IMG/VR virus record: IMGVR_UViG_3300048694_001252
Location: 51,247-115,246 of that record
Strand: one strand, 5' to 3'
DNA length: 64,000 nt
Source of the DNA: a virus
Part shown: positions 7,890-22,322 of the stretch, piece after piece
Layout of the letters: every line of letters begins with the position of its first letter
Numbering within the stretch: position 1 is the stretch's first letter
Position numbers and translations under genes: made by a program
The notes under the pieces: generated by a model
Told to the model about the DNA's origin: nothing
Databases searched by the model: none
Seen by the model: only the letters and a program-made list of their open reading frames with translations

Positions 7890-10800
7890 CTAGACTCTGC
7901 CCACCACGATTTCAATCAGGCCCTGATCGCCCTCAAAGTTTTCCAGACTCTTGCCTATAATAGCACCAGTTGGGGGGTCTGCATCCGATCTGGCCGCGCC
8001 GTTGCCCGCGCTCACCATCATGTCGCCCTTGCGTATCACGCCCGTGACACGGGTTTTTACCCGCCCCTGCAGAGCCAGCAGTACCGGATGTTCAGCTGAT
8101 ATGCCCGCGTTCATGACGTGTCCCGGACCGGTACTGACCACACCGGCCACGGCTCGATCACCATCAACTGAACTGATAGTTACTTCGTGTGTGCCACCAA
8201 AGCAGAGCACAGTACCCGGTTCATAGTCTTGATCGGCGCTGTATTTTTCGGCCAAGTCGGCATATTGAGCTTGTGTTGATGTGACCTGTAGCGTGTTATT
8301 TGCTGCATCAAAACTGAATGCCGTGGCTGCTGTTCGAACTGAGGCTGTTTGGTTGCTACCGGCTGCGGCCACAAAAACCGGATAGAATGTACCAGTTGTG
8401 ACCGCTGTGGCATTGATAGCCGTACTGGGTCCAGTGGAGCCCTGAGTGCCCGTGGAGCCCTGAGTGCCCGTGGAACCCTGAGCGCCTGTAGCACCTTGAG
8501 TACCAGTACCTGTGGTACCCTGTGCACCTGTTGTGCCTTGTGCACCTGTGGTGCCTTGTGTGCCATTTGTTCCTGCAGTACCCTGTGCACCTGTGGTGCC
8601 TTGAGCACCTGTGGTACCTTGTGTGCCATTTGTTCCTGCAGTACCCTGTGCACCTGTGGTGCCTTGAGCACCTGTAGTACCTTGTGTGCCATTTGTTCCT
8701 GCAGTACCCTGTGCACCTGTGGTGCCTTGTGCGCCATTTGTTCCACTAGTACCCTGTGCACCTGTGGTGCCTTGTGTGCCATTTGTTCCACTAGTACCCT
8801 GTGCACCTGTGGTGCCTTGGCCGCCGGTGGCACCTTGTGTGCCATTTGTTCCACTAGTACCCTGTGCACCTGTAGCACCTTGGCCGCCAGTGGCACCTTG
8901 TGTGCCATTTGTTCCACTAGTACCCTGTGCACCTGTGGTGCCTTGAGTGCCAGTACCTGTGGTGCCTTGTGCACCTGTGGTACCTTGTGTGCCATTTGTT
9001 CCACTAGTACCCTGTGCACCTGTGGTACCCTGTGCACCTGTGGTGCCTTGTGCGCCATTTGTTCCACTAGTACCCTGTGCACCTGTAGTGCCTTGTGTGC
9101 CATTTGTTCCACTAGTACCCTGTGCACCTGTGGTGCCTTGTGCACCTGTTGTACCTTGAGCACCTGTGGTACCTTGTGTGCCATTTGTTCCACTAGTACC
9201 CTGTGCACCTGTGGTGCCTTGAGCACCTGTAGCACCTTGTGTGCCATTTGTTCCATTAGTACCCTGTGCACCTGTGGTGCCTTGGCTACCAGTAGCACCT
9301 TGACTACCTGTGATACCTTGAGCACCTGTTGTTCCTTGAACACCTGAACCTGTAGTGCCTTGAGTACCTTGGGTACCCGTAGCTCCTTGGGTACCAGTAA
9401 TTCCCTGTCGACCTTGAATACCTTGAGTGCCCTGTGCACCTGTGGTGCCTTGGCTACCAGTAGCACCTTGACTACCTGTGGTGCCTTGAGCACCTGTGGT
9501 GCCTTGAGAACCTGCACCTGTGGTGCCTTGTGGTCCCGGAGTTCCACCAAGATTTACTGACCAAGAACTATAAGTACCAGATCCAGTAGTACTAGTAATA
9601 TTGGTTACTAGCTGTCCAGTACCGCTGTTATAACTGGTAACAGTTCCTGACATATAATTGCTACCGTCATATGAGATAACAATATTTTGAGATGAGATAT
9701 ATGCTAAATTGGTACCAACAGTTATCGTTTGACTGCCAGTTGCAATAGTCAGACTAGTTGAGCTAGTGGTTACATAAGCGTCGCCAGTTATACCTTGTGA
9801 ACCTAGAATACCTTGCGATCCAGTGCTGCCTTGACTACCTGTAGCACCTTGGGTACCTGTGGCTCCTTGGGTACCAGTAATTCCCTGTCGACCTTGAATA
9901 CCTTGAGTGCCCTGTGCACCTGTAGTGCCTTGGCCACCAGTAGCGCCTTGACTACCTGTAGCACCTTGACTACCTGTGATGCCTTGCGCACCTGTGATGC
10001 CTTGGCCGCCGGTGGCACCTTGTGTGCCATTTGTTCCACTGGTACCCTGTGCACCTGTGGTGCCTTGTGTGCCATTTGTTCCACTGGTACCCTGTGCACC
10101 TGTGGTGCCTTGGCCACCAGTAGCGCCTTGACTACCTGTGATGCCTTGAGTACCTGCACCTGTGGTGCCTTGGCCACCAGTAGCGCCTTGGCCACCAGTA
10201 GCGCCTTGACTACCTGTGGTGCCTTGAGTACCTGCACCTGTGGTGCCTTGGCCACCAGTAGCGCCTTGTGTTCCCAATAAACCTTGAACGCCTTGAGTGC
10301 CCATGGTTCCTTGGCTGCCTGTGACACCTTGAGCACCTGTGCTACCTTGTGTTCCTTGTATTCCGGTAGCTCCTTGAGGACCGGTTGTGCCTTGCGCACC
10401 AGATCCAGTACTGCCCTGTATGCCCGTGGCACCTTGAGCACCAGAAGCTTGCACAGCCACACCATTGGCATATTGGAATCCTGCAGCAATGACGTTGCCA
10501 ACTGCTGTGACTTTACCGCTAGAAAACACATTTCCGCTGGCAGAAATTGCACCAGTGGCATTGACATTTGCACCCTGGACATTGCCCGATGCTGATACTG
10601 TAACACCTTGCACCAGCGCGGCAGATATTAGATTACCACTGGTGACATTTCCCGAAACTGAAACTGTGGTCCCAGTATGGATCACTGCGTTGACATTGGC
10701 CCCACCAAGTATATTGGCACCAGTAATATTGCCCGTGACTGATAGTCCAGTACCGTTGAATATTGCTGCTTGAGATCCACCAATACCCACTGTGACCGCA

Positions 10801-10997
10801 CCGCCGGCGCTGACCACCTTGACATTGCTGGTACCATTGGTTATTTGATTAACCGATACGTTGCCACCAATACTGGTATTTCCGTTGATGGTTAGATCCC
10901 CGGTGATGGTAGTTGCCCCAGCCGAAAGCTTGATCGAATCTGTAGGATCTATGGTTTCGATGGTGTAATTGCCGCTAACGCGCTTGATTGTGCTCAT
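7890..10997 (-). CDS. Collagen-like fibre protein with C-terminal intramolecular-chaperone/autoproteolytic-like domain (1035 aa)
   Basis: Two Gly-X-Y tracts. C-terminus AQYADLAEKY...PGTVL...VAGVVST.PG..MN...ALQGRV...KGDMMVS...IIGKSLE...IEIVVGRV. Ends in TAG. Confidence 0.8.
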   Translation of the reverse strand: MSTIKRVSGNYTIETIDPTDSIKLSAGATTITGDLTINGNTSIGGNVSVNQITNGTSNVKVVSAGGAVTVGIGGSQAAIFNGTGLSVTGNITGANILGGANVNAVIHTGTTVSVSGNVTSGNLISAALVQGVTVSASGNVQGANVNATGAISASGNVFSSGKVTAVGNVIAAGFQYANGVAVQASGAQGATGIQGSTGSGAQGTTGPQGATGIQGTQGSTGAQGVTGSQGTMGTQGVQGLLGTQGATGGQGTTGAGTQGTTGSQGATGGQGATGGQGTTGAGTQGITGSQGATGGQGTTGAQGTSGTNGTQGTTGAQGTSGTNGTQGATGGQGITGAQGITGSQGATGSQGATGGQGTTGAQGTQGIQGRQGITGTQGATGTQGATGSQGSTGSQGILGSQGITGDAYVTTSSTSLTIATGSQTITVGTNLAYISSQNIVISYDGSNYMSGTVTSYNSGTGQLVTNITSTTGSGTYSSWSVNLGGTPGPQGTTGAGSQGTTGAQGTTGSQGATGSQGTTGAQGTQGIQGRQGITGTQGATGTQGTQGTTGSGVQGTTGAQGITGSQGATGSQGTTGAQGTNGTNGTQGATGAQGTTGAQGTSGTNGTQGTTGAQGTTGAQGTTGAQGTSGTNGTQGTTGAQGTSGTNGAQGTTGAQGTTGAQGTSGTNGTQGTTGAQGTTGTGTQGTTGAQGTSGTNGTQGATGGQGATGAQGTSGTNGTQGATGGQGTTGAQGTSGTNGTQGTTGAQGTSGTNGAQGTTGAQGTAGTNGTQGTTGAQGTTGAQGTAGTNGTQGTTGAQGTTGAQGTAGTNGTQGTTGAQGTTGAQGTTGTGTQGATGAQGSTGTQGSTGTQGSTGPSTAINATAVTTGTFYPVFVAAAGSNQTASVRTAATAFSFDAANNTLQVTSTQAQYADLAEKYSADQDYEPGTVLCFGGTHEVTISSVDGDRAVAGVVSTGPGHVMNAGISAEHPVLLALQGRVKTRVTGVIRKGDMMVSAGNGAARSDADPPTGAIIGKSLENFEGDQGLIEIVVGRV

Positions 10998-11585
10998 CTA
11001 AAGGTCCTTTGGATTATTTAGTCGTCGTTGTAGGTCTTCTAGATCCAGATGAAACAGGTTAGCCAATCCATCAAATTGAGCAATATGCGCCGTGGTTGAT
11101 CCACGCACTCGGACAAAACGTATCCGCGGGAAATCGCCGGCGATACGCAGAATCTGCCGTGTCCAATTACCGGTATAAGTGGGTTGACTGCTGCTTTTTT
11201 TGTAGAATTCGGTATCCGCATACACATTGTTGAACAGATCGCCCGGCATTGGCCCCATATCAAATCCCACGAGATATATGGGATCATGATGGGCCAGTGC
11301 AGCCAAACTCACGGCCAATGGACCTGAACTAAATCCAAAATACTGCTGGGGTACAGACTTGGCACCTAGACCCGGAATAGGTTTACGAGTATAGAACTCG
11401 TATTGAGCCGAATAGCCACTCTCTTGTATGGCCGTGCTTATGGGTCTATCTGTAGACACCAATACTGTGGGTATAAATTCACGATAGAGAGCATTACAAC
11501 CATAGACGGGACCATGTCTTTTTACCTGATCCAGATCCAGCCCCATGCGACTGCGCCCGTTACCCAACACAAAAGCCACACTCAT
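10998..11585 (-). CDS. Rossmann-like nucleotide-sugar/transferase-type protein (DUF115/MptE-like or sialyltransferase-like fold)
   Basis: Motifs AFVLGNGRS, VYGCNALYR, SSGPLA and IYLVGFD. GGAGG RBS. Its TAG stop abuts the next ATG in frame. Confidence 0.55.
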   Translation of the reverse strand: MSVAFVLGNGRSRMGLDLDQVKRHGPVYGCNALYREFIPTVLVSTDRPISTAIQESGYSAQYEFYTRKPIPGLGAKSVPQQYFGFSSGPLAVSLAALAHHDPIYLVGFDMGPMPGDLFNNVYADTEFYKKSSSQPTYTGNWTRQILRIAGDFPRIRFVRVRGSTTAHIAQFDGLANLFHLDLEDLQRRLNNPKDL

Positions 11586-11617
11586 AAAAAATCCTCCCAG
11601 TAGTTATCTGGGAGGAT
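11586..11617 (-). terminator. Intrinsic terminator-like hairpin that also contains the RBS of the downstream gene
   Basis: Minus strand: ATCCTCCCAG-ATAACTA-CTGGGAGGAT-TTTTT-ATG (10-bp stem plus T tract). Confidence 0.7.
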
Positions 11618-11636
11618 CCTTTTGGTTTGACAAATG

Positions 11637-12464
11637 TTACGAAGTAAGGTTGTTGATCTGGGCCAATTGCAGACTACCATTCTGTGCGGAAGCACCATTG
11701 ATAACTTCTGCACCAGACCATGTGACCGTACCTTCATCAGTGAAGAAGTTGGTGGGATAAAAGTTTTCGCTACTTTGTACATTGGTACCATAGTTGCTGT
11801 CAGCGTAGTTGCCATAGGTCATGCCATTCCAGTCACGTACCCATTTATTGGTGATATAAGAAGCGTAAACAGCCGAACTATCACCCACAGAGTATGCCAC
11901 GCTCATATATCCTGCGCTGGGAGAACCAGTGTTGGCCAGAACACAGATACCCACATTCCACACGGTACCGTTGTCAACAACAGCCGAACTACCACTGATA
12001 GTGGCTGTGAAAATATCACCCTGTGCTGCATTGGGGCTAGCACCAAACTGAGACCAATCTGTACCGCTGGCACTGTTGATCATATAGGTATTACCGGCCA
12101 CGATGTCCTCATCTTGTATGTCCGAGGCTTTGGCCACCAAGAATTTGTGTGCACCCTTTTGGCGCAAGATGCGGCCCGATCCCGAACCAGTGCTAGAACC
12201 GCTGTTTAGTACGATATTGACCGTGCAGTTGATGTAGGGATTGGCAGCTGATCCCTGACCTTCTTGGAATCCACCCACCACGCCCAGATAATCCGAGGCG
12301 CTGAGTGTGCCAGCTGAGTTGTAAACCGGATCTGTCAGTGACCCAAAGTTGGGATAACCCACATCCACATTGACCGCGGCTGCGGGTTGATTTATGGTAC
12401 CATCGGCGTTGATCGTGATGCCCTGTGCAGGACCACGTTTGGAGATTTTGAGAGCTCGACCCAT
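11637..12464 (-). CDS. Putative virion structural protein (275 aa)
   Basis: Long ORF with AAGGA RBS, late promoter and terminator. Starts MGRALKISK and contains a GRILRQKGAHKFLV motif. Confidence 0.65.
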   Translation of the reverse strand: MGRALKISKRGPAQGITINADGTINQPAAAVNVDVGYPNFGSLTDPVYNSAGTLSASDYLGVVGGFQEGQGSAANPYINCTVNIVLNSGSSTGSGSGRILRQKGAHKFLVAKASDIQDEDIVAGNTYMINSASGTDWSQFGASPNAAQGDIFTATISGSSAVVDNGTVWNVGICVLANTGSPSAGYMSVAYSVGDSSAVYASYITNKWVRDWNGMTYGNYADSNYGTNVQSSENFYPTNFFTDEGTVTWSGAEVINGASAQNGSLQLAQINNLTS

Positions 12465-12488
12465 TTTGTTTGTTCCTTGTGTAAAGTT

Positions 12489-12544
12489 GCGGGTTCTATC
12501 CCGCTACGCTGTTTGGGGAAACAGCATAAGCCGCATGATTACGG
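12489..12544 (-). promoter_or_regulatory. Structured 5' leader (three adjacent hairpins)
   Basis: Minus strand CCG-taatcatg-CGG, TATGCTGTTT-cccc-AAACAGCGTA and GCGGG-atagaa-CCCGC, lying between the late promoter and the RBS. Confidence 0.5.
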
Positions 12545-12550
12545 ACCAAG

Positions 12551-12594
12551 TATTTATGCAAAAACCAAATTATACCAGAGTACCGTAGTAAATA
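12551..12594. promoter_or_regulatory. Back-to-back late promoters (TAAATA on - at 12551-12556; on + at 12589-12594)
   Basis: gcaTAAATActt on the minus strand and tagTAAATAccccGTG on the plus strand, each upstream of a divergent gene. Confidence 0.65.
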
Positions 12595-12598
12595 CCCC

Positions 12599-13747
12599 GT
12601 GAATACTGCACAGCTAATTGAAACCGGCAATCAACATCGTGCTGATCGCCAATATGATGCGGCTCTGGCCTGCTATGCCCAGGCCTTTGCCCAGGATCGC
12701 GGCTCATCTGCGGCCTTCAACAATTATGGCAATGTACTGCGTGAGATCGGGGAACCTGCTGGGGCATTGCCGTTCTTGGAACGTGCCATCCAGCTCAATC
12801 CCCAGGATCCCATGGCACAGTTCAATCGATCCGTGTGCTTGCTGCTCTTGGGCGACTATGAGCGCGGCTGGCCCGCATACGAGACCCGTTGGAACTACGA
12901 ACATCTCGCGGGCACCTTGCCCCAGCTTGATCGACCGCGCTGGACCGGACAAGATCTCCGGGATCGCTCTATACTGGTCATAGGCGAACAGGGACATGGT
13001 GACTGCATACAATTCAGTCGCTTCCTATGGAACCTACATGCCTTGGGCGCCCGCGTACATTTGCAGACCACCGATGGTTTGATACCGTTGTTCCAGAACA
13101 GCACCGTCATAGCATCGGTCTCGGCATACAGTAGTGCCATGCCCGAGGTTGATTACTGGATACCCATCATGAGCATCCCGGCCGTGCTGGGCCTGACCCT
13201 GCAGAATCTACCGCGATCCATCAACTATATCACAGCACCCGACAATTTGTGCCAGCAATGGCGCCAACTGTTGGGCAACAAAACGCGATTGAGAGTAGGC
13301 TTGTCCTGGAGTGGCCGCCGGGACGCCTGGCTCAACACCCACAAAGGTATGCCATTTGCTCAGGCTCTCACGCTGATACGATCAAACCCGCAATGCGAAT
13401 GGATCAATCTCCAGATTGATGCCACCCCAGAAGAAACAGCGGCCTTGGCCGAGCTGGGTGTGCGCATGTTTCCCGGTACCATCACTGGATTCCATGATAC
13501 TGCGGCCCTGCTGATGAACTTAGATGTGGTGCTGAGCGTGGATACTGCCATAGCGCATCTAGCTGGGGCGCTGGGTCGTCCCACCTGGGTCATGTTGCAG
13601 CGATTTGCCGTGGACTGGCGCTGGCTTCTAGCGCGATCAGATTCGCCCTGGTATCCCACAGCACGCCTGTTCCGTCAGGAGAATTTTGATGACTGGTCCA
13701 CGGTCATACGCGAAGTCAGTCAATATATCTCATGGTTCAAGGTATGA
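12599..13747 (+). CDS. TPR-repeat protein with GT-B (GT9-like) glycosyltransferase domain
   Basis: N-terminal TPRs (AFNNYGNVLREIG, AQFNRSVCLLLLG). C-terminal motifs EQGHGDCIQFSRF, VGLSWSG, DVVLSVDTAIAHLAGALGRPTW and WRW...SPWYPTARLFRQ. Confidence 0.85.
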   Translation: MNTAQLIETGNQHRADRQYDAALACYAQAFAQDRGSSAAFNNYGNVLREIGEPAGALPFLERAIQLNPQDPMAQFNRSVCLLLLGDYERGWPAYETRWNYEHLAGTLPQLDRPRWTGQDLRDRSILVIGEQGHGDCIQFSRFLWNLHALGARVHLQTTDGLIPLFQNSTVIASVSAYSSAMPEVDYWIPIMSIPAVLGLTLQNLPRSINYITAPDNLCQQWRQLLGNKTRLRVGLSWSGRRDAWLNTHKGMPFAQALTLIRSNPQCEWINLQIDATPEETAALAELGVRMFPGTITGFHDTAALLMNLDVVLSVDTAIAHLAGALGRPTWVMLQRFAVDWRWLLARSDSPWYPTARLFRQENFDDWSTVIREVSQYISWFKV

Positions 13748-13914
13748 GTCGACAACCAACCAAACTGATCGCAGCCGGAGACATAGTGCGCAGACCCACA
13801 GACCGTGCGCAGGGCGTGGTATTGTCACGCCGGGGCATATGGACCGTGGAGGTCAAATGGCCCAGTGGTGCCAAGGAAATCGTGAAAATCTCGGAGCTGA
13901 TCAGGGTGGCCTAG
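13744..13914 (+). CDS. Small hypothetical protein (56 aa, SH3-like beta pattern)
   Basis: ATG overlaps the upstream TGA (ATGA). Sequence GDIVRRP...GVVL...VEVKWPSG. Ends in TAG. Confidence 0.55.
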   Translation: MSRQPTKLIAAGDIVRRPTDRAQGVVLSRRGIWTVEVKWPSGAKEIVKISELIRVA

Positions 13915-13928
13915 ATTGTCCAATTTGT

Positions 13929-13960
13929 TTGTAAACCACCTGCAGAATCGTGCATAATTA
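13929..13960 (+). promoter_or_regulatory. Possible promoter for the tRNA operon
   Basis: TTGTAA-N18-CATAAT (sigma70-like), overlapping TAATTA (possible late-box variant) just upstream of the tRNA. Confidence 0.35.
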
Positions 13961-13966
13961 CCATAT

Positions 13967-14040
13967 GCGCCCGAAGCTGATCGGATAGCCGGAGCCTCTA
14001 AAACTCCTGGTAGCGGGTTCGACTCCCGCCTGGCGCACCA
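13967..14040 (+). tRNA. Amber suppressor tRNA (anticodon CUA)
   Basis: Cloverleaf: acceptor GCGCCCG/CTGGCGC + A73 + encoded CCA; D stem GCTG/TAGC with GG in the loop; anticodon arm GGAGC-CTCTAAA-ACTCC with CTA at 13998-14000; T arm GCGGG-TTCGACT-CCCGC. Confidence 0.9.
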
Positions 14041-14058
14041 CTAACCAAGGAGACTTTC

Positions 14059-14601
14059 ATGTCCTAGATTGAATATGCATGCCGAGATTGTGTTTTTCAT
14101 TTCAACAAAAAACATCTAGAAGACCCCACCGTGCCCATGTGGGTAATCAAAACACATGGTGAAACGTTCTATGTGAATCATGTCACATGCGAACTTGCCT
14201 GGTCAACCAAAGAAACCCCCGACAACACGCATACCAAAGGATCTCTCAAGATCCGTGAATGCCTGCTGACCATTGACGATGCCAATGAGGCCCGACTCAC
14301 TGAACTCACAGTCTGGGATCGGGTTCGTCTGCGCAATCAGCGACTGGGTATAACTCGAATCATATTTGCATACGGTAGTGATATCCATCGTGCGCTCAAG
14401 GCCAAGGAGTTCCGGCACAGCTCTTTCAAGAACGTGAGCGGAGGATGCGGTACCAGTTTTGTGGTCTGTGATCTCCTAGATCCAGCAGAGGCCACGTTTG
14501 CTGCTCTCAAATATCAGTTCAGAGTAATGAAACCCAATGAAGATTATTATCGAGCCTATGATCAACCCGGATCTCACATAGAGGAATCGGGAGAATACTG
14601 A
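14059..14601 (+). CDS. Hypothetical protein (180 aa) with an in-frame amber codon at position 3, needing read-through
   Basis: AGGAG (14048-14052) lies 6 nt before ATG TCC TAG ATT GAA TAT GCA TGC CGA GAT TGT GTT TTT CAT TTC AAC..., in frame with track ORF 14131-14601. The internal GTG/ATG starts lack a good RBS. Confidence 0.75.
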
Positions 14602-14618
14602 GGACAGATCGGGGTGGC

Positions 14619-15314
14619 CTAGACTCCATATTGCCCACGTGAGGCATTGAAGTTTTGCAAGACTTCCCAGTCAGACAAGGATCTATTGTAGCAGAAAAAC
14701 TGGCCTATACTGCCACTCAAGAGATTGCCATGATCGTAACTGGCTATGTCGGTGCTACCGTCGCCGGGATGCGGGTTGAGATTGTAGCTTGAACTGGCGT
14801 CAAATACACCGTTCACATAGGTTTTCATACTTACATAGGCTTCAAATGTCACGGCTATGTAATACCACTGACCTAGATCAAACGTGGCCACGGTGGGAAA
14901 TGCATTGTAGTTGGCCCAGTCCTGGTGTCCGCTATAGAAACGGTTGCCACCTGATCCAAAAGTGAAGTGACCACCTGCGAAACTACTCACTATGTTGTTG
15001 TTATAGCTGTAGCTGTTAAGACGCAACCACATGCTCTTGGTATACTGATTGTTGGGTAACACATTGGCAGTGAATCCCACACCGTACTGATTGGCGCCAT
15101 TGAACGTGAAGTAGGAGGGTGTGCCTGAGGTCCACGTGGGCGAATTCTGCAAGCTAATATTGGCTCCAAAACCCGAAAGATCATACCAGGTGGTTCCAGA
15201 TCCCGGATAGCTGGCAGGGTTATTGGCATCCAACCACATGGTCAGTCCTGTGGTGACATATCCAGGTTCATCCTGCAAGATTGTGCCTTGAATTTTGCCG
15301 CCTGAGATAATCAT
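14619..15314 (-). CDS. LamG/concanavalin-A-like domain protein
   Basis: LTMWLDANNPASYPGSGTTWYDLSG...WYYIAVT...YVNG...YNRSLS..EVLQNFNA. Confidence 0.8.
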   Translation of the reverse strand: MIISGGKIQGTILQDEPGYVTTGLTMWLDANNPASYPGSGTTWYDLSGFGANISLQNSPTWTSGTPSYFTFNGANQYGVGFTANVLPNNQYTKSMWLRLNSYSYNNNIVSSFAGGHFTFGSGGNRFYSGHQDWANYNAFPTVATFDLGQWYYIAVTFEAYVSMKTYVNGVFDASSSYNLNPHPGDGSTDIASYDHGNLLSGSIGQFFCYNRSLSDWEVLQNFNASRGQYGV

Positions 15315-16036
15315 ATTCCAAACCTTGATCTATTGGCATTGAAGTTCTGTGACACACCGCTGGTACCAATATCTGCGTTATAGATTCTTACAATGCTGAG
15401 TTTGCCGCCCCAGTATTGATAATTGTCCCAACGACTCATCAATCTGATGCCATTTCCACCACGCACTGAGTTGAAGCCGGGCCATGCACGACTGTTAACC
15501 AAGACGCCATTTACATACAGTCGCACGGTGGTGCCGTCCCAAGTGCCTGTGACCTGATACCAATTGCCTGTGATTAGTGTGACCTGCCCAGAATAAGTTG
15601 ATGCCCAACCACCATTGAATGAACCAGACTGGAGGTAGGGAAAACTGTCTTCGGTGTTGCCCAAAGTAAAGTTGAGGGGATTGCCAAAATACATTTCTGT
15701 CACAATACAAGGAGATCCCGAGCCCATGTTGGTAGTGTCATGATACAACCAGGCTTCCACAGTCCAGTTTGAAAATGTTGATGCAAATGATGGTCCCTGA
15801 GCATACTGACTCAAAGCCGGATCAAACAATATACTACCGCCATTGCCAGCATCGTAGGCAGGGCTGTTGGCCAAAGTATATACCAATCCGCTTTCAGTAT
15901 CAGTCCATGTTGAGCCTGAGCCTGGATAACTGGCAGGATTACCGGCGTCAAGATTCAAGATCAAATTGGCCTGCACCACTCCGGGTGTTTGATATCTACC
16001 GCCGCGATAGGTTCCACTTCTTATGATCATAATCAA
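15311..16036 (-). CDS. LamG/concanavalin-A-like domain protein
   Basis: LILNLDAGNPASYPGSGSTWTD...WYQVTGTWDGTTVRLYVNG...VRIYN...QNFNANRSRFGI. Confidence 0.8.
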   Translation of the reverse strand: MIMIIRSGTYRGGRYQTPGVVQANLILNLDAGNPASYPGSGSTWTDTESGLVYTLANSPAYDAGNGGSILFDPALSQYAQGPSFASTFSNWTVEAWLYHDTTNMGSGSPCIVTEMYFGNPLNFTLGNTEDSFPYLQSGSFNGGWASTYSGQVTLITGNWYQVTGTWDGTTVRLYVNGVLVNSRAWPGFNSVRGGNGIRLMSRWDNYQYWGGKLSIVRIYNADIGTSGVSQNFNANRSRFGI

Positions 16037-16794
16037 ATTCCGTAGGTAGTTTTCACAGCATTGTAGTTTGCGGTGACTTGAGCTTGACTCAAAGCAATGT
16101 TGTAAGCTCTCATTTGATAATAGGTGCCAATAGCAACATCAGTTGGCGTGCCTGAGGTACCAGCATTAGGATGGCGAGAACCAAAGTTCAATCCTGTGGC
16201 GGCAGGGCTTTGTGCAGAATTATATCCAGTGGAGACTGAGTTTTGTAGCGTTCCGTTGATGTATAACTTGAGGCTAGGTGTAGCATCTACTGTGATAATA
16301 AATTGTCTAATAGCTCCTGAGTTGGCAGTGACATTATAAAGGTTGTATTTGCTGGTCACTCCACCTATAGAGATTTGAGTTGAGCTTGCCCAATACGCCA
16401 TCCAACCAAGGCTCGCCAGGTAACTTTCATTGCCAAACAGTGTAGACCAAAAACTCGTTGCAGTAATATTTGCAATAACTTCAACGGTGAACGGGACTGC
16501 CAAATTATATGATGTATTGGCTACCATGGCCATGTTTGTGGCTTGACTTGGTCCCAATATCAACCCTCCATTGTTGCTGGAGGTATAAGTAGCGGTTCCG
16601 GTGCCTGTTTTGTATATCGTACCATTGCGACCATTGCCCGACTCATCTAGCCAATAGTTGAAGCTGGCAGTTGGTGCATTGAGATAGTTGATCTGTAGGC
16701 CTGATGTAGTGCCGGTCCAAGTATTATTGCTGGGGTACACAGGTGATGAAGCTGATCCCACGTTGTTCATCATATTCATCATGATGCCAGTCAT
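16033..16794 (-). CDS. LamG/concanavalin-A-like domain protein (likely start MTGIMMNMM at 16794)
   Basis: The ATG overlaps the upstream TAA (TAATG). WLDESGNGRNGT...LKLYING...MRAYNIALSQAQVTANYNA. Confidence 0.75.
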   Translation of the reverse strand: MTGIMMNMMNNVGSASSPVYPSNNTWTGTTSGLQINYLNAPTASFNYWLDESGNGRNGTIYKTGTGTATYTSSNNGGLILGPSQATNMAMVANTSYNLAVPFTVEVIANITATSFWSTLFGNESYLASLGWMAYWASSTQISIGGVTSKYNLYNVTANSGAIRQFIITVDATPSLKLYINGTLQNSVSTGYNSAQSPAATGLNFGSRHPNAGTSGTPTDVAIGTYYQMRAYNIALSQAQVTANYNAVKTTYGI

Positions 16795-19700
16795 TAACTT
16801 ACTCCTGTGCCGTTGATCATCCAAACGTTGGCGGCAACATTCAATAGTGTCGCCATGCCATATGTGGTCACGGTTCTATTACCAGCAGTGGCATTGCCTG
16901 CAAGATACAGACTTACTCCGGTGTCTTGTGCAATAGTGATGTTGCCGGTTCCACGATTTACAATACTGATTGCTGTGCCCACGGTCCAACTCACAGATGA
17001 GTTATTTGCGATAGTCAATGTGTTACCAGTGGACAATGTTGAGTAGTAATGCTTGCCTGCATCGGCTGCTGCTATTGTGGCATTGCCAGCGAACGATATT
17101 TGGGGAAGATCTCTATAACCAATGGCATAGTTAGCAGTGGTTACTGTTGCTGAATTGCCTAACACTGCTCCAGGAGCAATGATATTGCCACCCAGTTGCA
17201 CATTACCGCCCAAAGGATTCAACACGATTGGATAGTAAGTGGCATTTTGTGAATATCCGCTTTGTATCCATTGTGCATAGGCTGTGCTCACACCATTTAG
17301 TGTAGATCCAACTGGATACTGACCCAAAGCCAGATAGTTGCTGCCGGAACCGCCTATTGATACCGCAGCATTGGCAGTGATTGCGTTGGCTGCTGGGGCA
17401 AGCTGAATTCCGCTTAGTAAACTATGTTGTAATGTGGCTGTGGCGTTGGAGCCTACATTCAAGTTACCTGTAACACTGGCAGTTCCTGCGGTGCTGATGT
17501 TACCACCAATGATATTACCTGTGGCTGTGATCAATCCGCCAGTTAAAATGTTACCGTGTGTGGCATTACCAGTAGAACTCATAATGCCAGCAGTTAAGAT
17601 ATTGCCACCAGTGATGTTACTCGAGGCTGATATCAATCCACCTGTTAATACGTTACCACCTGTGATATTACCAGCGTTAACTGTGCCGGTGGTAGATATT
17701 GTGTTACTGCCATATGCAGCCAACAATGTGGTTACGTTTGAGTTTCCATAACTGCTACCTGCAGCAACCGCGGCAAACACACCATTACCATATAACACGG
17801 TGCTGGCGTTGCCGTTTAAGTTGATTGAACTAATATTGCCCAAGTTTGCGGCTGTGATATTACCTGTGGCCGAAATCAAACCTGCTGTGAGTAAGTTGCC
17901 ACCCGTGATGTTGGCTGACACTGACACTGTGGTTCCTGTGTACGTGGTAGCATTGACATTGGCACCACCTAGGATATTACCACCTGTGATGTTGCCAGTA
18001 GCTGAGATCAAACCTGTGGTCGTGACGTTGCCGCTGATTACGTTACCAGTCACAGATGCATTACCACTGGTAACTGAGAATCCACTTACAATCAAGTTAG
18101 ATTGGGCATTGACATTACCAGTTACAAAAATACCATTTGTGCTGTTGAAGTTTACTCGCTGACCAAACTGAACTGCGGAGCCATTCTGAGTTGTAATCGT
18201 ATTGTTAGAACCATAAATGGTCAGTGCTGTACCAATAGTTGCGTTGCCTGTTGCAGTCACATCAGATAAGGTCGTAGCTCCGGTTACCTGCAACGATGTG
18301 GCTGTAACTGTGCCCGAAGCTGATATACCAACACCAAGTAAGTTGCCGCCACGCACGTTACCAGTTGCACTGATTGCACCACCTGTGAGTATATTTGCAC
18401 CAGTGATGTTGCCAGTGGCATTTACCTGTCCTGCGGTAGACAAATTGCCACCAATCACATTGGCTGCGCTGGTGACAGTACCAGTTGCACTGATTGCACC
18501 ACCTGTGAGTATATTTGCACCAGTGATGTTACCTGCGGTCACAGTGCCAGTAGTGGATATTGTGTTGCTGCCAAATCCAGCTAGCAAAGTGGTCACATTT
18601 GAGTTGCTGTAGGCGGCTGGTAATCCTGTGAGCTGGCTACCATTGCCAAAAAAGTAGTTTGCTGAGATATTTCCCGAAGCACTGACCACTCCTGTGGCAA
18701 CAAGATTGCCACCTGTAACGTTACCGGTAGTGCTGACTGGCGCAGAACCACTGACTTGTATATTGCTTAGTAAACTGCCATCGCCTAAGATATAGGCACC
18801 ACGCACGTTACCAGTGGCCGAAATAGCACCACTGGTAGTGATCCCTGTGTTGGAGATTTGCGCCACGGTGTTTGCTGAGCCCGAGCCGCCGGCATTGAAC
18901 TTGATACCGTAGCCTGCTGTTGTGGTACCAAGAACCAAGTTGCCACCTGCTGCCCCACCTTGCACATACAGATAACCGTCTCTGCGCTGCACTGCTGAAC
19001 CAAGACTGTTGTCTTGTGTACCGTCCCACACACTGCTGGCTATACCCATGTCAAGATAGTTTGTGGTATCTGTGCCGTCATCTGCTGTGATCGCCAGTTC
19101 CATAGACGCCACATTACCGTGATTGGTATTCTGCAGGTTTACTTGGGTATAGCTGTTGTCATCGCCTGTTATTTGTACCACAGTGTTGGGCAGAGGTGTA
19201 TAACCGGTCTTGCCAGCATAGATAGCACCAATACCTGTTGATATATTGCCGTAGAACACACCCGAGTTGCCAGAAATCTGTGTGACGTTTCCTGTAAAGT
19301 TTATGTTGCCAGTCACAAACAAGTTACCACCAATGGTAGCGTTACCATCTAAATCAAAGTTTTTTGAGCCGTTGATGTTGCCACTTATGGTAGCGTCGTA
19401 AACACTCAGGTTGCCAGTTGTTGTGATATCTCCGGGAGCAGTCAGTGCACCTGTGTTATCAAATGTCCAATGGCTTGTGAATGCGCTTATGCTCACATTG
19501 CCATTGGCATAGATCTGGATATCGTTGGCATCCATGTAGATGGCTGTGAGATCATCCACAGTAGAAGTTAGATAGGCAGTGTTACCACCGTTTTCGTTCA
19601 GCGACAGTTTTGAGTTGCCCTGTACAACGTTGCCAGGTATAGTCAAGTTACCAGTATAATCAAACACCCAACTGTTAGAACCAGCTGTGATGTTTACATT

Positions 19701-22322
19701 ACCTGCATGGCCTGCTGGGTCTGCACTGTTGCCTGTTGTGAGATAGATGCTGCCGCCAGGACCTCCTCCACCTCCATCATTGAAGGCACCAACGCCGCCT
19801 GTGATCACAACGTCTCCACCAGAAGTGGTATAGTAGTCGCCTAGATCTGCTGATCCAGCTGTGATAGCTATGTTGTATCCATCAACCGCACCTGTAGCAG
19901 ACACTGTGGAAACGGTTGTATTACCCGACACAGTGACATTGCCAGTGGTATCAAACGTCCATACTGCTGTGTTGGCGGCCAGTTCAATGTTGCCTGTTCC
20001 GCCTTGGAACGTGACATTGCCTGCGGTATCAAATGTCCAGGCATACGATCCAGCAATGACTTCTACATTGGGGTTGGTGCCTACAAACGCACCTGCACTC
20101 ACATTACCTGTGGTCACCACATTGCCCGGAGCAAACAACTGGCCATTGGTATCAAAGTTCCAAAGATTGCTGTTGCTGACCAGTTGCATATTGCCACTGG
20201 CGCCCAAGTTACCTGTGCTGTCAAATGTCCAACCATACACATTGCCTGCATTGCCCACATTGGTTTGGATGACCACATTGGCATTAGCATACGTATAAGT
20301 GTCAACTCCATTTTCCATGCTGACACCATTGACATCACTTTGTATGTTGGCTGTAACAGTGAGTCCAGTGTTGCTGTAGGCCCAAAAAGCCTGATTGGTG
20401 TCTAAAATGATATTGCCGGGTGCTGTAAGATTGCCAGTATTGTCAAAGGTCCAAATATATACATTGGCCACCAGTTCAATATTGGCCTGATCGCCTACAA
20501 ATGTGTTGGCTGTGATATTACCTGTGGTTGATATCACATTTGATCCAAAGTTGGCCATGAGTGTGACCACGTTGGAGTCACCGTAATTACTGATTACGCC
20601 ATCTAGAATACTGACACCATTGGCATAGTTGATGTTTGATGTGTTACTGGGTAGATCTATATTGCCATTGCTTCGGAAGGAGTATGATCCTGTGCCCACA
20701 TTGAGAACAACACCACTACCGCTGGTGCTGTAGATTTGAACAGGTTGACTGCTTTGATTCAGTACTGATGGAAAAGTCATACCGGCATTGCTTTCAATGC
20801 CGGGATCAATGCGTATACCTTCATTGCCTAGACCACTATTGGGGGCACCTAAATTGCCATTGAATTCACCGATGGTCCATTCACCGTCCAACCATGATAT
20901 TAAATTACCCAATCCGTATTGAATGACGTTGCTAGCAGCCATCGGGGTATTGGTCATCGTGATACTGGCAAATGTATTACCGCCACCACCATAGGGATTA
21001 CCATTGGCATAGTTGATACTGCTGGTGTCTGAGGGCAGGGTAATATTGCCATTGTTTTCAAAACGCCATTGGCTAGCACCAGCATTGACCAGCACATTGC
21101 CGTAAAAACCTAGACCACCGGTGCTGATACCGCCACCAATGGTGACATTACCCCCGGGACCATCCCCACCATAACCTCCGGTCATTGTGATGGCTCCACC
21201 AGAACCACCGCCTCCATAACCGCCTAAGATCTCAACATAACCACCCGAGCCACCGCCACTGTCCCCACCTTTGAGGTATAGATATCCAGCTGTGCCTGCA
21301 CTTTGTACATCCCCGGCTTCTACACGAATATATCCGCCTGAACCGTTGCCGGGTCCATATCCGCCGCGTATCTTGACGTCACCGCCATTGCCGTCTGTAT
21401 CGCCACCGCGACCGGCCCAGAGATAGATATCGCCACCTTCTCCGCCAGTACCGTCGGCACCTTTGCCAGGATTGATTACCAAACGTTGTGAGTTTATGTT
21501 TGTATTTGCATCGCCATTGGCCGTGGTTATTACAGACTCGTAGTTGTTGTCTGTCAACGACAACGTGTAACCATACACTGTACCACTGGATATATCTCCA
21601 CGAGTCGTGTATTGCAATGGAGCAAGAAGTTGACCATTGTTGTCAAAGGTCCATGTGGCCGCGGTCACCCCAGTATTGTTGCCAGTTTGTAACGCTAGGT
21701 TACCATAGAGATTGAACAGCGTGGTCGTGTTGTTGATTGCACCATTAGTGGGCAGAATCAAGGCCGCAGTGGGGCCAGACAACAGATCACCGTTTGTGAC
21801 GGAACCGCCATTGATGTTGTATTGTGTGTTGCCTATAAATGCCCAGTTACCAAGATCAGCATTGCCACCCGCTACGTTACTCCAATAGGTGTTACCTACA
21901 CCATCCGTGGTCAAGACCTGACCTGCAACGCCCGCCAGACCGGTGTAGCGTACATTGCCTACCTGAACTACCTGACTGGTGATACCCGTCGTGTTGAGAT
22001 AGCGTATCCAGGCACTGTCATACCAGAACGCAGGGGTACCTAGATCATACACACTGTCCGACAAGGGTCGCATGTGCTGTGTGAGCGCCGTGGTCTGCAT
22101 CTGTATGTTGCCTAGACCATTGCCCGCGATCACGAGATCTAGATCGGTCTGGGTAGTTGACACCCAGTTGTTGGTGATCGTCACATTGGTGTTGACCGGA
22201 CCTGCTGCCCACACGTTGGCAAAGTTGTTGTTGACGTTGTCAAAGGCCTCACGCAGGCCTTCACCGGTACCGTTGTTGGGTGCCGAACCTAGATTGATTA
22301 CCTGCTGGGGGGTATTGCTCAT
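16794..22322 (-). CDS. Long tail-fibre/adhesin-like protein (1842 aa)
   Basis: Same N-terminal anchor as the 2458-aa collagen protein (NLGSAPNNGTGEGLREAF). Repeats of WTFDNTGNLT, GG.V.I.GG and [12 protein letters not shown]. Confidence 0.8.
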   Translation of the reverse strand: MSNTPQQVINLGSAPNNGTGEGLREAFDNVNNNFANVWAAGPVNTNVTITNNWVSTTQTDLDLVIAGNGLGNIQMQTTALTQHMRPLSDSVYDLGTPAFWYDSAWIRYLNTTGITSQVVQVGNVRYTGLAGVAGQVLTTDGVGNTYWSNVAGGNADLGNWAFIGNTQYNINGGSVTNGDLLSGPTAALILPTNGAINNTTTLFNLYGNLALQTGNNTGVTAATWTFDNNGQLLAPLQYTTRGDISSGTVYGYTLSLTDNNYESVITTANGDANTNINSQRLVINPGKGADGTGGEGGDIYLWAGRGGDTDGNGGDVKIRGGYGPGNGSGGYIRVEAGDVQSAGTAGYLYLKGGDSGGGSGGYVEILGGYGGGGSGGAITMTGGYGGDGPGGNVTIGGGISTGGLGFYGNVLVNAGASQWRFENNGNITLPSDTSSINYANGNPYGGGGNTFASITMTNTPMAASNVIQYGLGNLISWLDGEWTIGEFNGNLGAPNSGLGNEGIRIDPGIESNAGMTFPSVLNQSSQPVQIYSTSGSGVVLNVGTGSYSFRSNGNIDLPSNTSNINYANGVSILDGVISNYGDSNVVTLMANFGSNVISTTGNITANTFVGDQANIELVANVYIWTFDNTGNLTAPGNIILDTNQAFWAYSNTGLTVTANIQSDVNGVSMENGVDTYTYANANVVIQTNVGNAGNVYGWTFDSTGNLGASGNMQLVSNSNLWNFDTNGQLFAPGNVVTTGNVSAGAFVGTNPNVEVIAGSYAWTFDTAGNVTFQGGTGNIELAANTAVWTFDTTGNVTVSGNTTVSTVSATGAVDGYNIAITAGSADLGDYYTTSGGDVVITGGVGAFNDGGGGGPGGSIYLTTGNSADPAGHAGNVNITAGSNSWVFDYTGNLTIPGNVVQGNSKLSLNENGGNTAYLTSTVDDLTAIYMDANDIQIYANGNVSISAFTSHWTFDNTGALTAPGDITTTGNLSVYDATISGNINGSKNFDLDGNATIGGNLFVTGNINFTGNVTQISGNSGVFYGNISTGIGAIYAGKTGYTPLPNTVVQITGDDNSYTQVNLQNTNHGNVASMELAITADDGTDTTNYLDMGIASSVWDGTQDNSLGSAVQRRDGYLYVQGGAAGGNLVLGTTTAGYGIKFNAGGSGSANTVAQISNTGITTSGAISATGNVRGAYILGDGSLLSNIQVSGSAPVSTTGNVTGGNLVATGVVSASGNISANYFFGNGSQLTGLPAAYSNSNVTTLLAGFGSNTISTTGTVTAGNITGANILTGGAISATGTVTSAANVIGGNLSTAGQVNATGNITGANILTGGAISATGNVRGGNLLGVGISASGTVTATSLQVTGATTLSDVTATGNATIGTALTIYGSNNTITTQNGSAVQFGQRVNFNSTNGIFVTGNVNAQSNLIVSGFSVTSGNASVTGNVISGNVTTTGLISATGNITGGNILGGANVNATTYTGTTVSVSANITGGNLLTAGLISATGNITAANLGNISSINLNGNASTVLYGNGVFAAVAAGSSYGNSNVTTLLAAYGSNTISTTGTVNAGNITGGNVLTGGLISASSNITGGNILTAGIMSSTGNATHGNILTGGLITATGNIIGGNISTAGTASVTGNLNVGSNATATLQHSLLSGIQLAPAANAITANAAVSIGGSGSNYLALGQYPVGSTLNGVSTAYAQWIQSGYSQNATYYPIVLNPLGGNVQLGGNIIAPGAVLGNSATVTTANYAIGYRDLPQISFAGNATIAAADAGKHYYSTLSTGNTLTIANNSSVSWTVGTAISIVNRGTGNITIAQDTGVSLYLAGNATAGNRTVTTYGMATLLNVAANVWMINGTGVS

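What the first reader, a model, noticed from the sequence alone, without database searches (positions are those of the whole stretch)
13967..14601. Amber-suppressor tRNA co-transcribed with a gene that has an amber stop at codon 3: a candidate tRNA-gated read-through switch
Seen in the sequence: a complete tRNA with anticodon loop CUCUAAA (CUA, reads UAG) ends at 14040. Next come AGGAG (14048-14052) and, at ideal spacing, ATG TCC TAG ATT GAA TAT GCA TGC CGA GAT TGT GTT TTT CAT TTC AAC AAA AAA CAT CTA GAA GAC CCC ACC GTG CCC ATG..., in frame with the 156-aa track ORF. This gives a 180-aa protein MS*IEYACRDCVFHFNKKHLEDPTVPMWVIKTHG.... No other long gene here has an internal TAG, and seven genes use TAG as their stop, so the genome is not globally recoded. 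Established knowledge: some phages reassign TAG genome-wide and carry CUA tRNAs. Inference: here a single gene seems locked behind its own neighbouring suppressor, so the protein is made only when the tRNA is matured, charged and out-competes RF1. It could sense host translation state or an anticodon-nuclease defence. It could form a feedback loop if the protein (CxxC, several His, GGCG motif, function unknown) matures or charges the tRNA or inhibits RF1. It could also be a precursor stage of stop-codon reassignment.
Basis: partly seen in the sequence, partly recalled or inferred. Interest (0 to 1): 0.93.

Follow-up and report, generated by a model that had tools for sequence, protein, structure and literature searches.

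The report
Phage gene locked by amber codon
A freshwater giant phage that otherwise uses the normal genetic code carries a small insertable cassette: a tRNA that reads the UAG stop codon, followed by a conserved gene whose third codon is UAG. The protein can apparently be made in full only when that tRNA overrides the stop, and more than a hundred other phages keep the same pairing.

Summary

**In the window**
- The tRNA(CUA) at 13967-14040 is real (ARAGORN; Infernal 45 bits).
- AAGGAG, ATG, TCC and TAG follow it, in frame with the ORF that ends at 14601.

**In relatives**
- Among 137 distinct homologues from IMG/VR and one cultured Rhizobium phage, 126 have an in-frame stop just before the first conserved strand. 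It is always TAG, never TAA or TGA.
- 91 of 117 loci with full flanks have a same-strand CUA tRNA within 3 kb.
- The 23 codons between TAG and the annotated start show a coding (third-position) substitution pattern and form the first beta-strand of a confident model.

- A close relative has an empty site, so the 690-bp tRNA+gene unit is a discrete indel bounded by a 17-nt direct repeat.
- Several TAG-less homologues also sit beside CUA tRNAs.
- A fused, TAG-less form lies in a Pth2-like/RnlA/phosphatase operon of jumbo phages. The protein is therefore probably tied to tRNA or translation.

**Still open**
- The protein matches no known family and no confident fold. Its function and the amino acid inserted at UAG are unknown.

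This scan has reported the same module on other DNA. I found no published description.

The parts
13899..13915 (+). Left copy of the 17-nt direct repeat GATCAGGGTGGCCTAGA. It is the end of the 60-aa ORF 13732-13914, whose stop is the TAG inside the repeat.
   Evidence: the repeat finder D2, 16/17 identical, 708 nt apart. These are the only two copies of GGGTGGCCTAG in the 115-kb contig. The relative L132 has a single copy at the empty site.
13916..14606 (+). The cassette: about 690 bp holding a promoter-like site, tRNA(CUA) and the amber-gated ORF. It is present here and absent from a close relative.
   Evidence: Window 10944-13915 and 14604-15257 are contiguous in L132, where the Laminin_G-like neighbour is 91% identical in protein. 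Metagenome contigs break away exactly at 13916 and 14607 (table 7).
13929..13958 (+). Sigma-70-like promoter candidate TTGTAA-18-CATAAT, ending 8 nt before the tRNA.
   Evidence: Consensus scan. This is a pattern match only. No + strand terminator-like site lies between the tRNA and the ORF, so co-transcription is inferred.
13967..14040 (+). Amber-suppressor-type tRNA with anticodon CUA. It is class I (short variable loop), has G1-C72, C2-G71 and A73, and encodes CCA. C6.U67 and C31.A39 are mismatches.
   Evidence: ARAGORN; Infernal RF00005 45 bits. In the 60-sequence family alignment, 17 of 18 pairs have compensatory changes. It is the only tRNA in the 115-kb contig.
14047..14052 (+). Shine-Dalgarno AAGGAG, 6 nt upstream of ATG 14059.
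   Evidence: Read directly. The region is not structured (z = 0.57). GTG 14131 and ATG 14137 have no comparable site.
14059..14064 (+). Two-codon leader ATG TCC (Met-Ser).
   Evidence: In homologues the leader is ATG plus mostly 1-9 variable codons, with no codon periodicity.
14065..14067 (+). In-frame UAG, the lock, followed by A (TAG ATT).
   Evidence: Invariant in the 64 distinct aligned segments whose TAG lies exactly 10 codons before the anchor, while neighbouring third positions vary. 126 of 137 homologues have TAG here and none has TAA or TGA. No variant in contigs of 3 independent studies.
14068..14343 (+). N-terminal core domain (protein residues 4-95; 'FHFNK...PMWV.K..G.T.YV.H...WSTKETPDN.HTKGS'). 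It is all-beta and includes a WW-like three-stranded motif.
   Evidence: Homologues match from residue 4-8 onward. AF2 pLDDT is 93, and strand 1 is residues 4-15. The codon-position entropy pattern is coding. Best VIA Z is 3.8; there is a weak WW match.
14344..14601 (+). C-terminal domain (about residues 97-172, ferredoxin-like beta-alpha-beta-beta-alpha-beta), a short acidic tail, and the TGA stop at 14599-14601.
   Evidence: AF2 model. VIA-align gives Z 5-6 to ACT/RRM/EF-G-domain-like folds, which is generic. The domain is absent from the core-only subfamily.
14607..14623 (+). Right copy of the direct repeat GATCGGGGTGGCCTAGA. It overlaps the stop (CTA on +) of the convergent Laminin_G-like gene 14619-15314 (-).

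Best explanation
This is a self-contained, insertable 'lock-and-key' cassette.

**How it works**
- One promoter-like site drives a suppressor-type tRNA(CUA) and, 18 nt further on, an mRNA with a strong ribosome-binding site. Its reading frame is Met-Ser-UAG, followed by a conserved 177-residue protein.
- Ribosomes that start at ATG 14059 end after two codons if RF1 reads the UAG. They make the protein only if the cassette's own tRNA reads it.
- Protein output therefore depends on the amount of mature, charged suppressor relative to RF1. This is a natural coherent feed-forward, AND-type gate. It would suppress leaky expression, add a delay, and scale the protein dose with the read-through capacity of the infected cell.
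- A stop at codon 3 makes failure cheap, because only a dipeptide is made.

**What the protein probably does**
Its relatives sit beside CUA tRNAs even when they lack the TAG. A fused form lies in a Pth2-like/RNA-ligase/phosphatase operon. So the protein most likely acts on or alongside tRNA or translation, as a factor needed in proportion to amber suppression.

**Shown versus inferred**
- Shown: the anatomy, the conservation of TAG, the tRNA linkage, coding selection right after TAG, and the indel nature of the cassette.
- Inferred: co-transcription, actual suppression, the amino acid inserted, and the gate or dose-coupling purpose.
- Unknown: the protein's biochemical activity.
For: **Anatomy:**

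**Coding starts right after TAG**
- tblastn and HMMER hits align from residue 4-8.
- Entropy at codon positions 1/2/3 is 0.40/0.27/1.12 for the 23 codons after TAG, against 1.04/1.28/1.38 before it.
- AF2 strand 1 is residues 4-15, with pLDDT above 90.
- No canonical start lies between TAG and codon 25, and no SD precedes GTG 14131 or ATG 14137.

**TAG is selected**
- 126 of 137 distinct homologues have a stop there. All are TAG.
- TAG is spread across the whole family tree and lost only 2-6 times.

**The key is linked**
- 91 of 117 loci have a same-strand CUA tRNA within 3 kb. ARAGORN misses some with odd D-arms.
- The cultured Rhizobium phage RHph_I1_18 has MSEFM-TAG-NESCREV..., unannotated, ending 11 nt before its tRNA(cta).
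- The tRNA family keeps its cloverleaf through compensatory changes in 17 of 18 pairs.

**Not recoding**
- 35 of 107 ORFs end in TAG.
- Large structural ORFs are intact under code 11.
- This is the only such ORF in the contig.

**The residue at the site is not constrained**
- TAG-less homologues start with ATG there or carry R or N.

**The cassette is a unit:** empty site in L132.

**The gate logic works in principle:** a synthetic circuit of the same logic damps leaky expression in E. coli (PMC7969014, abstract seen).
Against: - Nothing is experimental. Expression, processing and charging of the tRNA, and read-through itself, are not shown, and no RNA run holding the stretch was listed.
- A third of the contig's genes end in TAG, so an efficient suppressor should be costly. 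This argues for weak suppression or tight control.
- The tRNA is transcribed with its client, so the 'lock' opens whenever the cassette is on. The selective benefit of gating is therefore inferred, not obvious.
- About 22% of loci show no CUA tRNA within 3 kb. In at least one such case (L044) it lies 9 kb away.
- Six of ten TAG-less homologues still have the tRNA, so the tRNA has some role beyond unlocking this gene.
- In about 90% of cases the codon after TAG is AUU, AUC or AUA, which also fits the reinitiation rival.
- Only 33% of the genome is in hand.
Confidence: 0.72

Rival explanations
1. Termination-reinitiation. ATG-TCC-TAG is a two-codon upstream mini-ORF that loads ribosomes. The main ORF is then started at the next codon (AUU, a weak start) without any read-through. 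On this view the tRNA is an unrelated neighbour.
For: The codon after TAG is ATT, ATC or ATA in most homologues. TAG-less homologues begin with ATG at or next to that position. Two-codon minigenes with a strong SD are known from lambda bar (my own knowledge).
Against: A mini-ORF could end in any stop, yet 126 of 126 use TAG. Some homologues have ACT, AAC, GTA, AAA or CAG after TAG, and these cannot initiate. The same-strand CUA tRNA is present in 85 of 107 TAG-bearing loci. L060 has lost both the TAG and the nearby tRNA, although it is nested in a TAG clade.
Confidence: 0.1
2. The phage is partly recoded (TAG read as an amino acid, 'code 15') in the two-thirds of the genome not in the contig. 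This gene is then just one of many recoded genes, and the tRNA serves them all.
For: The contig is only 33% complete. Recoded phages do carry CUA tRNAs (bioRxiv 10.1101/2021.08.26.457843). Some database copies of the family appear to have been translated with TAG as Q.
Against: TAG ends 35 of 107 ORFs here, including in the structural region where recoding usually appears. No other gated ORF is in 115 kb. The same one-gene pattern recurs in more than 100 contigs. It also occurs in RHph_I1_18, which is deposited as a complete genome with 300 annotated features; I did not check that phage's genetic code.
Confidence: 0.05
3. UAG encodes a special or non-canonical residue that the protein needs at that position (pyrrolysine-like logic).
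For: There is a single conserved in-frame UAG next to a dedicated CUA tRNA, as with pylT and mtmB. ARAGORN labels the tRNA 'Pyl', but only because of the anticodon.
Against: TAG-less homologues start at that position or have R or N there. The leader before it is variable, and the site precedes the first structured residue. The tRNA has a standard G18G19, T-loop and 5-nt variable loop. I did not search the contig for a dedicated synthetase or biosynthesis genes.
Confidence: 0.03
4. The annotated 156-aa product (from GTG 14131 or ATG 14137) is the real protein. On this view the upstream frame is a decaying remnant, or the TAG is a sequencing error.
For: Gene callers pick that start. Many database entries of the family begin at the equivalent Met.
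Against: There is strong purifying selection on the 23 upstream codons. They form the central first strand of the fold. No SD precedes the internal starts. The TAG is confirmed in independent assemblies.
Confidence: 0.02

Closest known systems
Stop-codon-recoded phages with their own suppressor tRNAs ('code 15', TAG read as Gln; crAss-like, Lak and others; bioRxiv 10.1101/2021.08.26.457843; PMC9523058)
   Same: A phage-encoded CUA tRNA allows in-frame TAG codons in phage genes to be translated. It has been proposed as a timing device for gene expression.
   Different: In those phages tens of genes, mainly late ones, are recoded and TAG is depleted as a stop. Here one gene carries one TAG at its very start, the key sits beside the lock, and TAG remains a common stop (35 of 107 ORFs). 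The 'code change module' described there is itself written in standard code, whereas this cassette's own gene carries the in-frame TAG.
Synthetic suppressor-tRNA coherent feed-forward loop ('leak dampener', PMC7969014)
   Same: The logic is the same. One input drives both a suppressor tRNA and a target mRNA carrying amber codons, so the output needs both and leak is suppressed.
   Different: That circuit is engineered in E. coli. This one is natural, compact (about 690 bp), conserved across more than 100 phages, and apparently mobile.
prfB (RF2) autoregulation through an early in-frame UGA (own knowledge)
   Same: An early in-frame stop codon in a translation-related gene makes its synthesis report on the cell's termination or decoding capacity at that codon.
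   Different: prfB escapes by a +1 frameshift and senses its own product. Here escape is by a dedicated tRNA, and a feedback role for the protein is not shown.
pylT with the methylamine methyltransferase genes (pyrrolysine; own knowledge, reviews listed)
   Same: A dedicated CUA tRNA gene is linked to client genes that have one conserved in-frame UAG, in an organism that still uses UAG as a stop.
   Different: In that system the residue is catalytic and needs PylS and PylBCD. Here the site tolerates any residue or can be absent, and the tRNA has a standard architecture.
Suppressor-tRNA + Pth2-like hydrolase cassettes noted earlier in this scan (e1-933198 and others; unpublished AI notes)
   Same: The design is the same: a CUA tRNA beside a small gene with TAG at about codon 3, in standard-code phages.
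   Different: The client protein family differs. The link found here is that a TAG-less fused form of the present family lies two genes from a Pth2-like gene in Atu_ph07 and Phosso.

Membership tests
Functional tRNA (Rfam RF00005) | Cloverleaf scoring above the family cut-off | tested here: met
   45 bits against a gathering score of 29, full length 1-71. ARAGORN agrees.
Functional tRNA (Rfam RF00005) | Helices maintained by compensatory change in relatives | tested here: met
   17 of 18 consensus pairs have double changes among 60 distinct sequences.
Amber suppressor tRNA | Anticodon CUA in a 7-nt loop with U33 and a purine at position 37 | tested here: met
   The loop is C-U-CUA-A-A. TCTAA is invariant in the family alignment.
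Amber suppressor tRNA | Is aminoacylated and reads UAG in vivo | not testable with these tools
   No RNA run holding the stretch was listed, and there is no proteomic data. The identity set (G1-C72, C2-G71, mostly A73, class I) does not settle the amino acid.
Genome-wide TAG recoding (code 15) | Many conserved genes carry in-frame TAG | tested here: not met
   Only this ORF fits in 115 kb. Structural genes are intact under code 11. Two-thirds of the genome is unseen.
Genome-wide TAG recoding (code 15) | TAG is rare or absent as a terminator | tested here: not met
   35 of 107 heuristic ORFs end in TAG.
Pyrrolysine system | tRNA-Pyl architecture: 3-nt variable loop, 6-bp anticodon stem, no G18G19/T-psi-C consensus (own knowledge of the family) | tested here: not met
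   The tRNA has GG in the D-loop, a GGTTCGA T-loop and a 5-nt variable loop.
Pyrrolysine system | The residue at the UAG site is functionally required | tested here: not met
   TAG-less homologues start at this site or have R or N there.
Known protein families (Pfam, PHROGs, NCBIfam, PADLOC) | Significant profile match | tested here: not met
   No family matched at the thresholds used.
WW domain | Two Trp about 20 residues apart around a three-stranded sheet with a G-x-x-Y-Y-x-N-H core | tested here: inconclusive
   A profile of the core domain hits NEDD4-like WW domains over 18 positions. E is 5e-4 for a four-WW protein and about 0.06 for single domains. AF2 shows three short strands there. 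Structure searches do not list WW domains.
OB-fold nucleic-acid binders | Five-stranded closed beta-barrel superposing on OB proteins | tested here: inconclusive
   The best VIA matches are Stn1/Ten1, RPA and PriB at Z 3.1-3.8, below the level that carries meaning.

The most novel reading that the evidence does not exclude
The protein is itself a trans-acting factor of UAG decoding. It could be, for example, an RF1 antagonist, a chaperone or protector of the suppressor tRNA, or a rescue factor for the damage read-through causes.

The cassette would then be a feedback device. Positive feedback would give a switch into a UAG-read-through state. Negative feedback would give a homeostat that holds read-through at a set level.

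Because the cassette is mobile, it could seed TAG recoding when it lands in a new phage. On this view it is the missing first step on the road to code 15.
Probability: 0.2. Interest if true: 0.92.

Novelty: new variant of a known kind. Interest (0 to 1): 0.82.

Why it matters
- **A client for orphan suppressor tRNAs.** Suppressor tRNAs in phages that use the standard code have had no known target. This cassette gives them a conserved one and shows a natural translational AND-gate built from one tRNA and one stop codon. Synthetic biologists engineered the same design independently.
- **A testable intermediate on the way to recoding.** It sits between the standard code and stop-codon reassignment.
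- **A new protein family linked to tRNA.** It has at least 147 clusters at 50% identity, no known fold match and three architectures. All point to tRNA or translation.
- **A compact natural part.** The unit is about 690 bp and apparently portable, so it could serve for leak-free expression.
- **A cultured system exists.** RHph_I1_18 on Rhizobium carries the module, so the idea can be tested directly.

Tried and rejected
**Family searches**
- Pfam, PHROGs, NCBIfam and PADLOC gave no family for the protein.

**Fold searches**
- Foldseek against the PDB gave nothing at E <= 0.001, for the whole model and for the N-domain.
- VIA-align wide gave only generic ferredoxin-like matches for the C-domain (Z 5-6) and OB-like rows at Z <= 3.8 for the N-domain.
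For the part after TAG it gave no usable hit.

**Similarity searches**
- blastn of the region against 50,697 phage records gave no match.

I could not read the DNA behind database proteins that show Q at the TAG site. Their nearest IMG/VR relatives have TAG there, so Q is probably a code-15 translation.

**tRNA isotype**
- Similarity to 36 other phage tRNAs from the same loci was uninformative: 0.67-0.74 maximum identity for all isotypes.

**Pth2**
- There is no Pth2 (PF01981) in this contig. No relative of the Atu_ph07/Phosso Pth2-like gene lies in the other loci.

**RNA structure**
- There is no read-through-stimulating structure around the TAG (z = 0.57).
- No other Rfam family, such as a ribozyme, lies next to the tRNA.

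**Expression**
- No RNA holder was listed among public runs, so nothing can be said on expression.

**Not run**
- Complex prediction was not used. I make no binding claim, and the host's RF1 is unknown.

**Considered and dropped**
- The CxxC as a redox or zinc motif: the second Cys is not conserved.
- A 2H-phosphoesterase reading of H-x-T: the Thr is not conserved.

Full report
**1. What is there**

The window is part of a T4-like jumbo-type phage.
- It holds a major head protein (phrog_138), a portal and a baseplate hub.
- The head protein is 66% identical to those of Pseudomonas phage PA5oct and Sinorhizobium phage Phosso.
- The record is a single linear 115,246-bp contig. CheckV rates it about 33% complete.
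- Public freshwater metagenomes hold the stretch.

At the finding's coordinates the sequence reads exactly as described.
- A tRNA with anticodon CUA and an encoded CCA lies at 13967-14040 (ARAGORN; Infernal 45 bits against a cut-off of 29).
- AAGGAG follows at 14047-14052, then ATG at 14059, TCC and TAG at 14065-14067.
- The open frame then runs through the annotated GTG (14131) to TGA (14599-14601), which gives 180 codons.
- A sigma-70-like site, TTGTAA-18-CATAAT, ends 8 nt before the tRNA. No terminator-like site separates the tRNA from the ORF.
- The start region is unstructured.
- This is the only tRNA in the contig.

**2. Is the TAG real and is it a stop here?**

- Contigs from three independent freshwater studies cover 14065-14067 without a variant. 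They differ from the window at nearby sites.
- TAG is a normal terminator in this phage: 35 of 107 heuristic ORFs end with it.
- The long structural ORFs (2458, 1842, 1234 and more than 3774 aa) are intact under the standard code.
- A scan of the contig for SD-ATG-(1-10 codons)-TAG followed by a long ORF returns only this gene as a case with a strong SD and a late first canonical start.

**3. The frame upstream of the annotated start is coding**

- tblastn against phage records matches residues 7-86.
- IMG/VR relatives match from residue 1-4.
- An exhaustive HMMER search finds 147 clusters at 50% identity. Many are annotated from the internal Met, as expected if gene callers stop at TAG.
- I compared 64 distinct DNA segments aligned on the TAG. 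The 23 codons after it have entropies of 0.40/0.27/1.12 at codon positions 1/2/3. The four codons before it have 1.04/1.28/1.38, apart from the ATG. The TAG itself is invariant.
- AlphaFold models are confident (pLDDT 93). They place residues 4-15 as the first, central beta-strand.

**4. The lock and the key travel together**

Three scans of IMG/VR plus the phage records gave 137 distinct homologues whose N-terminus lies in the fetched locus.
- 126 have an in-frame stop 7-11 codons before the FHFNK motif. All 126 are TAG, and none is TAA or TGA.
- Each TAG is preceded by an ATG and a short leader, mostly 1-9 variable codons (MS, MA, MQ, ML, MSM, MTQQ, MTDLNPIAI and others).
- Of 117 loci with at least 1.5 kb on both sides, 91 carry a CUA tRNA within 3 kb, always on the gene's strand. 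It lies upstream in 79 and downstream in 12.
- This is an undercount. Infernal and a loop/T-arm pattern found CUA tRNAs with unusual D-arms that ARAGORN missed (L005, L041 and others). In L044's contig the tRNA lies 9 kb away.
- The cultured Rhizobium phage RHph_I1_18 has the unannotated frame MSEFM-TAG-NESCREVIFHFNK..., ending 11 nt before its annotated tRNA(cta).
- The tRNAs form one family: G1-C72, C2-G71, mostly A73, CCA encoded, short variable loop. In 17 of 18 consensus pairs the helix is kept through compensatory changes.
- On a quick tree of the core domain, TAG-bearing genes fill the whole tree and TAG-less ones need 2-6 changes. L060, nested in a TAG clade, has lost both the TAG and the nearby tRNA.

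(a) *The cassette is a discrete indel.*
- In IMG/VR contig 3300047400_000252 (L132) the Laminin_G-like neighbour is 91% identical in protein. There, window 10944-13915 and 14604-15257 are contiguous, with a single copy of GATCCGGGTGGCCTAGA.
- In the window that 17-mer flanks the cassette on both sides (13899-13915 and 14607-14623).
- Metagenome contigs also break away exactly at 13916 and 14607.
- Whether this is an insertion with target duplication or a deletion between repeats cannot be told. Either way the tRNA and gene move as one unit. This fits their presence on very different phage backbones.

(b) *The protein goes with CUA tRNAs even without the lock.* Six of ten TAG-less homologues with full flanks have a CUA tRNA close by (L054, L057, L058 with two, L067, L071, L089).

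(c) *The family has three architectures*.
- Core only, about 80-95 aa, with the tRNA usually directly downstream.
- Core plus a ferredoxin-like C-domain and acidic tail, as here, with the tRNA usually upstream.
- An N-terminal helical extension plus the core, without a TAG, in Atu_ph07 and Phosso.
- The third form lies in an operon with a gene annotated as peptidyl-tRNA hydrolase in Phosso, a T4-type RnlA RNA ligase and a metallophosphatase. Atu_ph07 encodes an opal (UCA) suppressor, not an amber one (PMC6102473).

(d) *The site tolerates any residue.* TAG-less forms start with ATG there (MIELAC..., MVEIAC...) or have R or N. Database entries with Q there align to TAG in their nearest DNA relatives and are probably code-15 translations.

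**6. What the protein is**

- No Pfam, PHROG, NCBIfam or PADLOC family matches.
- The C-domain (about residues 97-172) is a ferredoxin-like beta-alpha-beta-beta-alpha-beta unit. It gives only generic matches to ACT, RRM and EF-G domain-like folds, at Z 5-6.
- The core domain has no convincing structural relative. The best rows are OB-like, at Z 3.8.
- A profile search of PDB sequences picks up WW domains over the stretch P-M-W-V-x-K-x-x-G-x-T-x-Y-V-x-H...W. The E-value is 5e-4 at best. I treat this as a lead only.
- The core has many invariant polar residues (H, N, K, H, T, K, E, T, N, T, K). This suggests an active site or a tight interface with a conserved partner.
- Recurrent neighbours in other phages are an AhpC/TSA peroxiredoxin and an AhpD-like (CMD) protein. 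Their meaning is unclear.

**7. Mechanism**

The best-supported reading is tRNA-dependent translation of the ORF through UAG. One transcriptional input makes both the key and the locked message. Protein output then needs both and rises more steeply than transcription.

This is the logic of the engineered suppressor-tRNA feed-forward 'leak dampener' (PMC7969014). In spirit it also resembles prfB's early UGA.

Placing the stop at codon 3, before the first structured residue, makes failure cheap and leaves the residue free.

The protein's relatives keep company with stop-reading tRNAs and tRNA-repair or hydrolase genes. I therefore infer that it works on or alongside tRNA or translation, and is needed in proportion to suppression. 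That step is inference.

The main rival is a two-codon uORF with reinitiation at AUU. It explains the frequent Ile codon after TAG. It does not explain the exclusive use of TAG, the non-start codons seen in some homologues, or the tRNA linkage.

**8. What is known**

The literature held here describes several related things:
- genome-scale recoding with suppressor tRNAs;
- 'code change modules' written in standard code;
- standard-code phages that have acquired a suppressor;
- ribozymes beside phage suppressor tRNAs.

I found no description of a single conserved gene locked by a UAG beside its own tRNA.

This scan has already reported the same module in other genomes, and a parallel one whose client is a Pth2-like hydrolase. 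My tests were run independently and agree. The empty site, the TAG-less linkage and the operon link to Pth2-like and RnlA genes did not appear in the short notes I was shown.

**9. Limits**

- There is no experimental evidence of expression, charging or read-through.
- The inserted amino acid is unknown. By E. coli identity rules, U35 with A73 would fit Lys, and CUA anticodons attract GlnRS. This is my own knowledge and was not tested.
- Two-thirds of the genome is unseen.
- The tree is a quick one on 85 columns.

Noticed in passing
window 10995-11000 (- strand); ORFs 10998-11585 and 7890-10997: A 195-aa ORF (phrog_30607) ends in TAG. The ATG of the 1035-aa collagen-like tail-fibre gene follows immediately and in frame (…CCTT TAG ATG AGC…). 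An amber suppressor would therefore make a 1231-aa fusion. In the contig, TAG-terminated ORFs run a median of 17 codons to the next in-frame stop, against 7 for TAA and 9 for TGA.
   Followed up: partly
L005:2632-2701, L041:2840-2911 and about nine other loci: These are CUA tRNAs with an atypical D-arm (GCCGACGGTCGGC, no GG). ARAGORN does not call them, but Infernal or a loop/T-arm pattern finds them, directly upstream of the gated gene. Standard tRNA finders therefore undercount phage suppressor tRNAs.
   Followed up: partly
L058:2322-2396 and 2402-2477: Two different CUA tRNAs lie in tandem upstream of a TAG-less homologue.
   Followed up: no
L042:3676-4242, L070:1963-2586, L065:1477-2016 and about 17 loci each: AhpC/TSA-type peroxiredoxin and AhpD-like (CMD) genes recur next to the cassette in other phages. 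They are not present beside it in this window.
   Followed up: partly
window 14578-14587 compared with the L132 empty site: The right-hand repeat may extend to about 47 nt. CATAGAGGAA near the end of the gated ORF matches the 3' end of the upstream 60-aa ORF as it reads in the relative L132. It could mark the recombination point or be chance.
   Followed up: partly
window 22347-23120 (-): A homing-endonuclease-like gene (phrog_314, E 7e-24) lies directly beside the major head protein gene.
   Followed up: no
window 461-7837 (-), 16794-22322 (-), 48977-52681 (+), 52678-63999 (+, open): These are very large ORFs (2458, 1842, 1234 and more than 3774 aa), uninterrupted under the standard code. I did not scan them against family libraries. 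Three Laminin_G/concanavalin-like paralogues lie in tandem at 14619-16824.
   Followed up: no
window 13965-13967 and 14040 (metagenome contigs X4, X7): Other contigs match only the tRNA at 90% or more and diverge exactly at its two ends. The same tRNA therefore sits in other contexts in the same lakes (table 7).
   Followed up: no
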